Origin: Paraspadella gotoi
Lineage: Eukaryota > Animalia > Chaetognatha
DNA length: 64,000 nucleotides
Assembly: GCA_051294375.1 (NCBI GenBank)
Contig: CM119270.1
Location: 21,505,532 to 21,569,531 of the forward strand
Reading direction: 5' to 3'
Shown one piece after another: positions 42,401-45,400 of this stretch; position 1 is the stretch's first letter; every line of letters begins with the position of its first letter. Both the position numbers and the translations under genes were made by a program. Below the pieces are notes generated by a model, which saw only the letters and a list, made by a program, of their open reading frames with translations, was not told the origin of the DNA and made no database searches.

Positions 42401-45400
42401 TTTATTTATTTAATTATCCATTCATAATTTATAGATAATTTCAGTAATACAGTCCTGTTCAAAAAAAAGAGGACACCCAAAAATATTATGAAAATAAATC
42501 AAGTTATATTATCTTTAATTTTAAAGATAATATAAGTAAATATTATATATATCATAGCAAAAGAAAATTAAGTTATTTTTAATCTCTTGTGTTTAAGATG
42601 CTGTCGCTCTGGAATGACTGGACCGATTTTCTTTTAAATTATACAAATGGGTTCCCTTTTCAAAAGTTTTTAATTCCCATTCATAATTTTTTAATAAATA
42701 TAAATACAATTTTCATAAATTACGGTTAAAAAGTATTTTTGGTTTTTAACTGATCTACAAAAAATATTTTTTGTAGTGATTAAAATGATATATTTTTTTA
42801 CCACTTATCTTTCGGGAATGCTCTTGAATGCTTGGACCGATTTTCTTTTAACTTACACATATGAATTTCCTATTTCAAAATTTATATTTATCATTTATAA
42901 TTTTTTCTAATATGTACATAAAACGTGCGCAACTTAAGTTTGAATAGTGTCCTCTTTTTTTTTGCGCAGGACATCAAATCAGAGATCAAAAACGATTAAA
43001 AAAATATTGCTGTTGATACTAACTTTTACTTTTCAACTAATTTATTCGTTTAGGATGCTGTGTCTAATTAATTTAGTATGCACAATCAATAGCTGGGATT
43101 AAGTTTTCAAAAAAATCACTGACCTAGTGGGAAAAAAAACGGACACTTTTAGCCAAAAAGTATTATATTTACCTAAAAACGAAACATTTTAGTGCAAAAA
43201 CAAAACATTTCAGCCAATCCCCACAAACTACATGGCTACAGTTCCAACAACGAATCAAGTGCAAGGCGCCGCGCCGCCTAAACATTTCGTATGTCAGCAG
43301 AAACATGATAAAAAACAAGTGTTTTTTATTTTGCCATCCTAAATTTTGATCCCTTTATTAAACTATGAATGTAAAGTCTTGTGCTACAGAGTGAAATAGC
43401 GGAATTGAACGTAAAGTAGTTCCCCGTAGAAAACGAATCAATGATGACAAAAACCAAATGACCCTTTCGATAAAAATGGCGACAATGGGCCAAAATGACC
43501 AGCAACAATGACAAGGAGTCAAAGTCCATGTGATGAAATGATTTGTGATATATTTCCAAGCAAGTTATATAGCATGTCTTTTAAGAGGAATTTTAAAGTT
43601 TAAATTTTTTTTTGTGTCCCAGGCTGTTTAAAATCTGTCTCGCTTAATTCATTAAAAAATATAAAAAATAAAAATTAAGAAATCCCGTAGTCTAACTTAG
43701 AAGTTTGCGTTTACCCTTACATATTTTTCTCTGGATCAAACCAAATCTAGTTTTTGTTTTTTGTACAATGTTGAAGTCTATCGTTAGCAAAGAAAGATAA
43801 TCTATATTTCTCGTTCCATAAAAACAAAAAAACATTCAGGTTGAAATCGCCGCCAACAGGATTTGCAAAGTTCTCAAAGTTAATCAAGAACTTGAGATTC
43901 TCATGCAAGACTACGAGAATTTGGCCAACGACGTGAGTTTTAATCTTTTGCCGTGAATTCAATTTCTCGCCTCCCCCCCTTCCCTACCCCCAACCCCCTT
44001 CCACTGCCCACCTGCCTTTTTTTTTGTGTGCCGTGCCTTTTTGCCGTGATTAAAAGATGTCCAAAGCTGGGAGTCGGATTTGTAAAGTTCTCAACGTGAA
44101 TCAAGGATTAGAAGGAATGATGGAAGAATACGAAGAATTATCGTCCGACGTGAGTAAAGATTTCTTGTTCTTCTTTTCACTGTTTTCTTTGACTGTTTCC
44201 TCTGACTGTTTCCTCTGGCCGTTTTCTTTAAAGTCATCGTGGTCAAAATTGGTTTTCGATCAAGGAATTGCTACGTTTTAAATTTTAAAAACTAGCAATG
44301 TACCCAATATGAAATTCAGTCAGTGAATAATAACATACAATTAAAACAGTTCATAAAACTGCAATACCAATTGTCAGATTGCTTGTTTATTGAATGAATG
44401 GACAATCTTATATTATTTGTACCGATTTCATAGCTAATTCTTTCCGGTATTCAATTCCAAAAATCCCAGGCTAGAATATTAATTCATGTTCGAAAAAAGT
44501 TTTGTCGCGATGACCTTTTTCCCGCCAAATCGGCCAATGAATGACCTTTTCTGACCCCAACGTTTTCCTTCCAAACCCCTTCCAAACCCAATTTTGCCAT
44601 CAACAGCTCCTCGGTTGGATTCGGTCCAAGAGACCCTGGCTGGAAGATCGAGCGACCGACAACACTCTCGGCGGATGCCAGAAGAAGTTGGAGGAATTCA
44701 GAAACTATCGGTGAGGCTTAATTAATTAATCAATTCAATGATTAATTAAATGTTTAAGTTTTAATAATTAAGTTGTCCTTTGGTTAAATTTTGGAACGAA
44801 ACGATATTCTCTAGTCAAAAAAGATCAGATTGCCGCGAAAGAGTTGTGCTCCCGTCGATGCTCTCGCTCTCTCTCTTCCTCTCCCTCTCTAGTCCCCTTT
44901 CTCTTGCTCTCCTTTTTTTCTCTCTTAATGTCCTTGGACTACTGAAGAGGCAGTAATTATTGTTATGTGAAAGTGACAGAACCGTTCAATATAAGCATTA
45001 AGCAGTCCCTGAGCTTCGGATCAGGCTGTAACACCGTGTTATAAGCGGGTTAAGTGCCCCGTCCCTCTTAACTGCTCGGCGGCCACCGGGCTAGAACCCC
45101 GGACCTTTGGGTTGGGAGGCGAATGACTTGCCTCCGGCACCAATGGCCGCTGATGAACGGTTGGTGGATTTTAGTCCACCATACTAATTACTATCGACTC
45201 CGTTCTTTAATATTTCTCGCTAACGAATACTATTTTTATGCCATTAAATAATAATAATAAAAAAAAATGATCAATTTTCCCATCCAGTCGCATGGAGAAG
45301 CCGCCGCGCCTGGAGCAAAAGGCCACGCTGGAGACTTCCTTCAACACTCTGCAGACGAAGCTGCGCCTCTCCAACCGTCCGGCCTACATGCCGACGGAAG

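What the first reader, a model, noticed from the sequence alone, without database searches (positions are those of the whole stretch)
43840..44149. Tandemly duplicated alpha-actinin neck exon, probably mutually exclusive
Seen: two homologous 93-nt phase-0 exons lie 124 nt apart ([31 protein letters not shown] vs [31 protein letters not shown]), both with gtgagt donors. They are diverged but share length and frame. Known: the neck helix (AANRICKVL) binds EF3-4 of the partner subunit and sets actin-binding-domain orientation and autoinhibition. The well-known vertebrate mutually exclusive pairs are the neighbouring CH2 exon (8a/8b) and the EF-hand exon (19a/19b), not this one. Inference: splicing switches the neck itself, and variant b (AAN>AGS, extra Gly) would weaken the helix or EF3-4 docking. 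Including both exons would also stay in frame.
Basis: partly seen in the sequence, partly recalled or inferred. Interest (0 to 1): 0.72.

Follow-up and report, generated by a model that had tools for sequence, protein, structure and literature searches.

The report
Splice-switched alpha-actinin neck exon
An invertebrate (likely an arrow worm) alpha-actinin gene carries two copies of the exon for the protein's regulatory neck; its RNA splices in either copy, related genomes keep the second copy, and that copy's three added glycines likely loosen the self-latch that controls this actin cross-linker.

Summary
Confirmed and extended. Two 93-nt phase-0 exons (43840-43932, 44057-44149; 17/31 aa identical) encode alternative necks of one 890-aa alpha-actinin. 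Contigs of one run join upstream exon>a>downstream (depth 641) and upstream>b>downstream (202); no a>b joint is listed. Two other, diverged genomic sequences carry exon b at 29/31 aa, one of them 123 nt behind exon a. All three b copies replace Ala266, anchor 1 of the EF3-4-binding 1-4-5-8 motif (Ala in 144 of 144 other necks), with Gly and add Gly278 and Gly281, while keeping R268/I269/C270/L273. The likely result is a looser, not abolished, latch (inferred, untested). A branch-point-like site about 30 nt after a's donor likely forbids a>b joining (inferred). The gene lacks the ancient exon 8a/8b pair. Mutually exclusive duplicated exons are a known kind and actinin has known pairs elsewhere; I found no report of a neck pair, but Lek et al. 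2010 was not held. The scan noted other actinin pairs in other genomes, but not this one. New variant of a known kind; interest 0.5.

The parts
36359..53232 (+). alpha-actinin gene, start codon to stop (18 coding exons counting both neck copies; 890 aa per isoform)
   Evidence: exon chain built and translated; tblastn of relatives
42005..42172 (+). upstream constitutive exon (end of CH2); includes the segment that is the separate exon 8 in other animals
   Evidence: its 3' end is the loose end on both a and b contigs; no second exon-8-like copy in the flanking introns
43840..43932 (+). neck exon a (canonical A266; major form in run X1)
   Evidence: joint 43932>44607, depth 641.2; 28-29/31 aa identical to 18 clade proteins
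43933..44056 (+). 124-nt intron between a and b: pyrimidine-rich, 1 adenosine in -45..-8, no internal AG after the donor, 7 YGCY motifs, TGCCGTG three times (43949, 44029, 44042)
43945..43975 (+). candidate conserved intronic element holding a branch-point-like TCAAT (43959-43963, A at +30 from a's donor) directly followed by the pyrimidine tract
   Evidence: aligns to the back-translated read-through intron of P0152: 0 of 300 shuffles and 2 of 135 genomic windows reach the score; branch point not mapped
44057..44149 (+). neck exon b (G266, G278, G281; minor form in run X1)
   Evidence: joint 44149>44607, depth 201.5; 29/31 aa identical in P0152 and P0153
44607..44710 (+). downstream constitutive exon (spectrin repeat 1)
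   Evidence: both joints land at 44607; contig depth 819.8 against 842.7 for a+b
43214..43288 (+). candidate 75-nt Pro-rich cassette exon just before the neck (not shown spliced)
   Evidence: splice sites and phase 0; 26-aa Pro-rich insert at this junction in P0021 and P0028, but sequence similarity is not significant (851 of 2000 shuffles reach it)
52257..52307 (+). 51-nt cassette exon between the EF1 and EF2 exons
   Evidence: 13/17 aa identical to the insert in P0019; similar inserts in other clade proteins, absent in P0003; splicing in this species not tested

Best explanation
A tandem duplicate of the alpha-actinin neck exon is spliced in as one copy or the other, and the minor copy b likely gives a looser neck latch because it puts glycine at the first anchor of the EF3-4-binding motif and two more glycines before the neck-rod hinge. 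Shown: both copies are spliced between the same flanking exons; b is conserved in other genomes; the substitutions. Inferred: (1) the duplication is lineage-specific (a and b share L279, where 125 of 126 other animals have N); (2) a>b joining is blocked sterically because b's branch point lies about 30 nt from a's donor, and YGCY/TGCCGTG elements may set the choice by cell type; (3) b-containing dimers spend more time open, so their actin-binding domains swing more freely and EF3-4 is more available to other ligands with less need for PIP2; (4) the two forms serve different cell types or muscles.
For: Joints 43932>44607 (641.2) and 44149>44607 (201.5), each contig carrying the upstream exon's 3' end, no a>b joint, and the sum about equal to the downstream contig (819.8). 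P0152 reads from the end of a through a 41-codon intron into b, and P0153 holds b with a different downstream intron; both are 29/31 identical to window b, the same level as a against its relatives (28-29/31). A266 is present in 144 of 144 non-b necks, G in 3 of 3 b copies (numbering fixed by the 7ank alignment). PMC4259493 (passages): the motif is A266/I269/C270/L273, a bulkier position 1 in titin Zr-7 goes with higher affinity, the free neck peptide is unstructured, and the hinges are G258 and M283. The helix-propensity sum over 262-283 is 10.3 for b against 8.2 for a and 8.1 for the consensus (scale values recalled). PMC7969005 (passages): distant branch points 25-41 nt from the upstream donor, below a ~50-nt steric threshold, enforce OGDH exclusivity.
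Against: No binding or structural measurement was made. b keeps R268, I269, C270 and L273, so docking may be little changed. I recall, untested, that beta-spectrin has glycine at this position and still docks EF-hands. RNA evidence comes from 1 run held as contigs (RNA status guessed by the tool, no tissue, rare forms dropped). No b-type transcript was seen in relatives: the junction pattern matched 0 records, the a/b pattern matched 1 record, an a-type transcript, and 18 of 18 clade proteins with a neck spliced in carry a. The long AG-free zone (117 nt) is not unusual in this gene, where 3 of 18 other acceptors have longer ones. The intron conservation rests on a back-translated protein and was matched by 2 of 135 random windows. 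The 126 outgroup necks are redundant (many moths).
Confidence: 0.6

Rival explanations
1. The pair is mutually exclusive and selected, but b changes something other than the EF3-4 latch: new Ser/Thr sites at 263 and 267 for phosphorylation, the CH2-neck contact, or the neck-repeat-1 hinge angle only.
For: The core motif residues 268-273 are identical in a and b, while 6 of the 14 differences fall in 274-284. S263 and S/T267 are kept in 3 of 3 b copies.
Against: The one motif anchor that changes (A266) is otherwise invariant in 144 of 144 necks, and position 1 is linked to affinity in PMC4259493.
Confidence: 0.22
2. The two necks are functionally near-equivalent; the pair is kept for regulatory reasons or by inertia, and the differences in b are tolerated drift.
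For: b is the minor form in the only run (about 24% of the summed contig depth) and was not seen in any clade transcript.
Against: The b-specific residues at 262-266, 274, 278, 281, 282 and 290 are the same in 3 of 3 copies whose introns have diverged, which points to selection on b's own sequence.
Confidence: 0.1
3. The exons are not strictly exclusive: a+b double inclusion (in frame, 31 extra residues) or skipping of both occurs and is functional, as a neck-length switch.
For: Both exons are phase 0, so nonsense-mediated decay would not remove a double inclusion. A Drosophila variation in this region is described in PMC2289344 (abstract).
Against: No a>b joint, and no third loose end at the downstream exon; the depths of a and b add up to the downstream depth. 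None of the 159 fetched proteins showed two neck motifs.
Confidence: 0.06
4. Exon b is an assembly artefact, an allele or a paralog, or a dead copy.
For: The assembly has gaps (1986 N in the window).
Against: Spliced b contigs match the window with no other letters and join this gene's own flanking exons; an independent sequence shows the same tandem layout.
Confidence: 0.02

Closest known systems
Alpha-actinin exons 8a/8b (bilaterian; ACTN2, ACTN4, fly, worm) - PMC4494069, passages
   Same: Tandem homologous mutually exclusive exons in alpha-actinin, next to the actin-binding domain.
   Different: 8a/8b encode the end of CH2; this pair is the next exon (the neck). The window gene has no separate exon 8 and no second copy of it.
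Alpha-actinin exons 19a/19b (chordate EF-hand 1, Ca2+-sensitive or -insensitive) - PMC4550062, passages
   Same: Lineage-restricted duplicated exon that tunes regulation by the calmodulin-like domain.
   Different: 19a/19b change the EF-hand; this pair changes the helix that the EF3-4 hand grips.
Drosophila Actn non-muscle, larval and adult muscle isoforms - PMC2289344, abstract only
   Same: [quoted passage not shown]
   Different: By recall, these come from exon 8 alternatives plus an extension, not a duplicated neck exon; insect proteins fetched here show one neck motif each.
Engineered open human alpha-actinin-2 NEECK (R268E/I269E/L273E) - PMC4259493, passages
   Same: Altered neck motif; predicted shift toward the open state.
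   Different: NEECK destroys the docking face; exon b keeps those three residues and changes position 266 and the helix C-terminal half. It is natural and chosen by splicing.
OGDH 4a/4b and alpha-tropomyosin exclusivity by distant branch points - PMC7969005, passages
   Same: Short intervening intron, adenine-poor long pyrimidine tract, branch-point-like site under 50 nt from the upstream donor.
   Different: The branch point here is predicted, not mapped, and the steric threshold of this animal is unknown.

Membership tests
alpha-actinin | CH-CH actin-binding domain, neck, four spectrin repeats, calmodulin-like EF-hand domain in one chain | tested here: met
   Window protein is 94-96% identical to P0002/P0003, which align end to end with chicken and human actinin structures; Pfam CH, Spectrin and EFhand_Ca_insen.
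mutually exclusive homologous exons | Adjacent exons homologous in sequence, same length and phase | tested here: met
   93 nt, phase 0/0, 17/31 aa against a shuffle maximum of 9.
mutually exclusive homologous exons | Each copy is spliced to the same upstream and downstream exons | tested here: met
   Two contigs in run X1.
mutually exclusive homologous exons | The two copies are not joined to each other | tested here: inconclusive
   No a>b joint listed and depths add up, but contigs drop rare forms and only 1 run was available.
mutually exclusive homologous exons | Both copies conserved across species | tested here: met
   b 29/31 aa in 2 other sequences, tandem layout in 1; protein level only.
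ACTN exon 8a/8b pair | Duplicated exon encodes the C-terminal CH2 segment | tested here: not met
   That segment lies once, inside exon 42005-42172; intron scores 18-31 against 90-154 for the exon.
ACTN exon 19a/19b pair | Duplicated exon encodes EF-hand 1 | tested here: not met
   No duplicated EF exon in tblastn; only a non-homologous cassette at 52257-52307.
steric-hindrance (distant branch point) exclusivity | Branch point of the second exon under about 50 nt from the first exon's donor | not testable with these tools
   Candidates at +11, +25 and +30; 1 adenosine in -45..-8; needs lariat mapping.
RNA-pairing (Dscam docking/selector) exclusivity | Complementary intronic docking and selector sequences | tested here: inconclusive
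   No complement of the repeated element in the region; the 25 longest of 197 inverted repeats were nearly all AT-rich and none had an arm in the a-b intron; no relative DNA for covariation.
EF3-4 pseudoligand neck (1-4-5-8 motif) | Hydrophobic residues at 266, 269, 270, 273 | tested here: inconclusive
   Exon a has 4 of 4; exon b has 3 of 4 (Gly at 266). Binding not measured.

The most novel reading that the evidence does not exclude
This lineage lost the ancient exon 8a/8b switch and evolved a new one that rewrites alpha-actinin's autoinhibitory pseudoligand itself: exon b is a natural, splice-selected, pre-opened alpha-actinin that frees EF3-4 for titin-like ligands without PIP2 and is deployed in a distinct muscle or sarcomere type (arrow worms are reported to have a secondary muscle with two alternating sarcomere types).
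Probability: 0.25. Interest if true: 0.72.

Novelty: new variant of a known kind. Interest (0 to 1): 0.5.

Why it matters
The neck-EF3-4 latch is the central regulatory switch of alpha-actinin and, per PMC4259493, probably of spectrins. It has been probed with engineered mutants; across 144 fetched natural sequences its first anchor never varies. A conserved, expressed natural alternative gives a ready pair of isoforms, differing at 14 of 890 residues, for testing how latch strength sets cross-linker geometry and Z-disc ligand binding. It also adds a further independent exon duplication to actinin's record, in a gene that lacks the bilaterian 8a/8b pair. It does not change how mutually exclusive splicing is understood.

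Tried and rejected
No whole genome is held for this window, and the genome index did not answer on six tries, so no relative's DNA around exon b was obtained and dN/dS on b could not be computed. The run search listed 1 run, with no holder on record as RNA; its spliced joints show that it behaves as RNA. Only 43780-44725 was laid, so the two extra cassette exons and the skip-both junction were not examined directly. The complex prediction of EF3-4 (from relative P0003) with neck b gave no answer (score 0.30, mark 0.34) and is not used either way. JGI metagenome scans: 0 matches for a non-a junction and 1 a-type transcript. The third hit of the 50%-representative search (P0160) is an unrelated repeat protein. 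The protein atlas returned only generic actinin clusters and no taxon. The AG-exclusion zone was rejected as special evidence. Similarity of the Pro-rich cassette to the relatives' insert was not significant. The recalled beta-spectrin glycine could not be displayed by the structure searches. Lek et al. 2010 (PMC4125621), the main survey of actinin splicing, is not held. The tree (22 of 161 available rows, chosen by hand) places the protein in an unnamed clade on a long stem but does not name the phylum.

Full report
Observation. Exons a (43840-43932) and b (44057-44149) are as described: 93 nt, phase 0, AG/GTGAGT, 124 nt apart, 58/93 nt and 17/31 aa identical against a maximum of 9/31 in 10,000 shuffles. 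They lie in a + strand alpha-actinin gene (36359-53232) that gives 890 aa with either exon. tblastn with 5 homologues shows no other duplicated exon. The CH2 segment that forms exon 8 elsewhere occurs once, fused into exon 42005-42172, and the flanking introns hold no second copy.

Splicing. One public run holds the stretch. Laid on 43780-44725, 6 contigs were placed. One runs from the upstream exon's 3' end through a to 44607 (depth 641.2), another through b to 44607 (201.5), both with GT..AG joints and no other letters. No 43932>44057 joint is listed, and the downstream contig (819.8) is close to the sum (842.7) (loose ends matched to 42143-42172). This is the shape expected of mutually exclusive exons with b at roughly a quarter. 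Limits: 1 run, contigs only, depth is a poor measure of expression, tissue unknown, rare forms dropped.

Relatives. The closest full-length proteins are unnamed, 93.8-95.7% identical, and form a 100/100 clade with the window protein on a long stem; the named arthropod, mollusc, annelid and hemichordate actinins are 73.5-76.9% identical (22 rows chosen by hand). Another note of this scan calls the genome an arrow worm (e1-10588039); my data fit a distinct lineage but do not name it. A search with exon b plus 9 intron codons found 2 proteins among 7 candidates, and an index-free search found the same 2 plus 1 unrelated protein. P0152 is a genomic read-through: the end of exon a, a 41-codon (123-nt) intron, then exon b. 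P0153 holds b followed by a different intron. Both are 29/31 identical to window b, as good as a against 18 clade proteins (28-29/31), although silent sites in this clade are well diverged (11 synonymous against 2 amino-acid differences between window a and L001). Against this, no b-type transcript of a relative turned up: 0 matches, 1 a-type record, and 18 of 18 clade proteins are a-type; assemblers and 90% clustering would tend to hide a minor form. Exons a and b share L279, where 125 of 126 other animals have N, which suggests the duplication arose within this lineage (one residue; inference).

What b changes. In human numbering (fixed by the alignment to 7ank), PMC4259493 (passages read) gives the EF3-4-binding 1-4-5-8 motif as A266, I269, C270, L273; notes that titin Zr-7 has a bulkier residue at position 1 and binds more tightly; finds the free neck unstructured; and places hinges at G258 and M283. 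Of 159 fetched proteins, 146 had a neck match; A266 is present in all 144 non-b necks (a redundant set), and G266 in both b-type relatives and in window b. Exon b also has G278 and G281 (E/D and mostly R/K elsewhere). It keeps R268, I269 and L273, the residues mutated in the open NEECK variant. Summed helix propensity over 262-283 is 10.3 for b, 8.2 for a and 8.1 for the consensus (scale recalled). I infer a weaker, more flexible latch, not an abolished one. I recall that beta-spectrin has glycine at this position, which would argue that glycine is compatible with docking; I could not check it. No binding was measured.

How exclusivity may be enforced. Double inclusion is in frame, so decay cannot explain its absence. 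The a-b intron has 1 adenosine between -45 and -8, fewer than the other 18 introns examined (2-22). Branch-point-like motifs lie at +8..12, +22..26 and +27..31, the last directly followed by the pyrimidine tract. The +13..+43 stretch aligns with the back-translated intron of P0152 better than 300 of 300 shuffles and 133 of 135 genomic windows: suggestive only. PMC7969005 (passages) describes the same architecture enforcing OGDH exclusivity with branch points 25-41 nt from the donor, under a ~50-nt threshold. The long AG-free zone is not special in this gene. The intron has 7 YGCY motifs (5.6 per 100 nt against 0.2-1.9 in the other introns; shuffle P 0.027) and TGCCGTG three times, of 4 on the window's + strand (P 0.002 for any such triple 7-mer). 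YGCY as a Muscleblind site is recalled knowledge; a role here is inference.

Comparison and novelty. PMC4494069 (passages) and PMC4550062 (passages) list two actinin pairs: exon 8 (bilaterian) and exon 19 (chordate). PMC2289344 (abstract only) places the Drosophila isoform differences between the actin-binding domain and the first repeat. Nine paper searches (listings only unless named) showed no report of a duplicated neck exon. The chaetognath genome paper PMC12460157 has 0 main-text occurrences of 'actinin', 'alternative splicing' or 'mutually exclusive' (supplements not read). PMC2020476 (passage) mentions a chaetognath secondary muscle with two alternating sarcomere types. Lek et al. 2010 was not available, and public gene models of this lineage could already contain the isoform. 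This scan has noted an urchin CH1-CH2 pair and a vertebrate 8a/8b pair in other genomes, and no look-alike of this stretch.

Verdict. A real, expressed, conserved mutually exclusive exon pair at an apparently unreported position, altering an otherwise invariant regulatory anchor. It is a new variant of a known kind. Exclusive splicing about 0.9; looser-latch function about 0.6; interest 0.5.

Noticed in passing
window:52257-52307: A 17-aa cassette exon between EF-hand 1 and EF-hand 2 exons, 13/17 identical to an insert in relative P0019; present in most clade proteins and absent in P0003, so likely alternatively spliced and possibly a calcium-sensitivity switch.
   Followed up: partly
window:43214-43288: Candidate Pro-rich 25-aa cassette exon just before the neck; relatives P0021 and P0028 carry a 26-aa Pro-rich insert at this junction. 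Together with a/b it could vary both spacer length and latch strength.
   Followed up: partly
window:42005-42172: No intron bounds the exon-8 segment, so the 8a/8b switch described as ancestral to bilaterians is absent from this gene.
   Followed up: partly
window:42606-42747 and 42820-42961: A 142-nt direct repeat (71% identical) and a 16-nt perfect inverted pair (42461-42476, 42947-42962) in the intron before the neck; probably a repeat element.
   Followed up: no
window:16000-28000: Large internal duplications and inversions (similar open frames recur near 16000-22000 and 22000-28000 on both strands) with several N gaps; possibly transposon copies or misassembly.
   Followed up: no
window:49612-49935: A GC-rich open stretch inside the long actinin intron 48636-51016 that does not match actinin; may be a transposon fragment.
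   Followed up: no
P0144 (Ptychodera flava): The one outgroup neck with glycine at 267 (next to the position changed in exon b).
   Followed up: no
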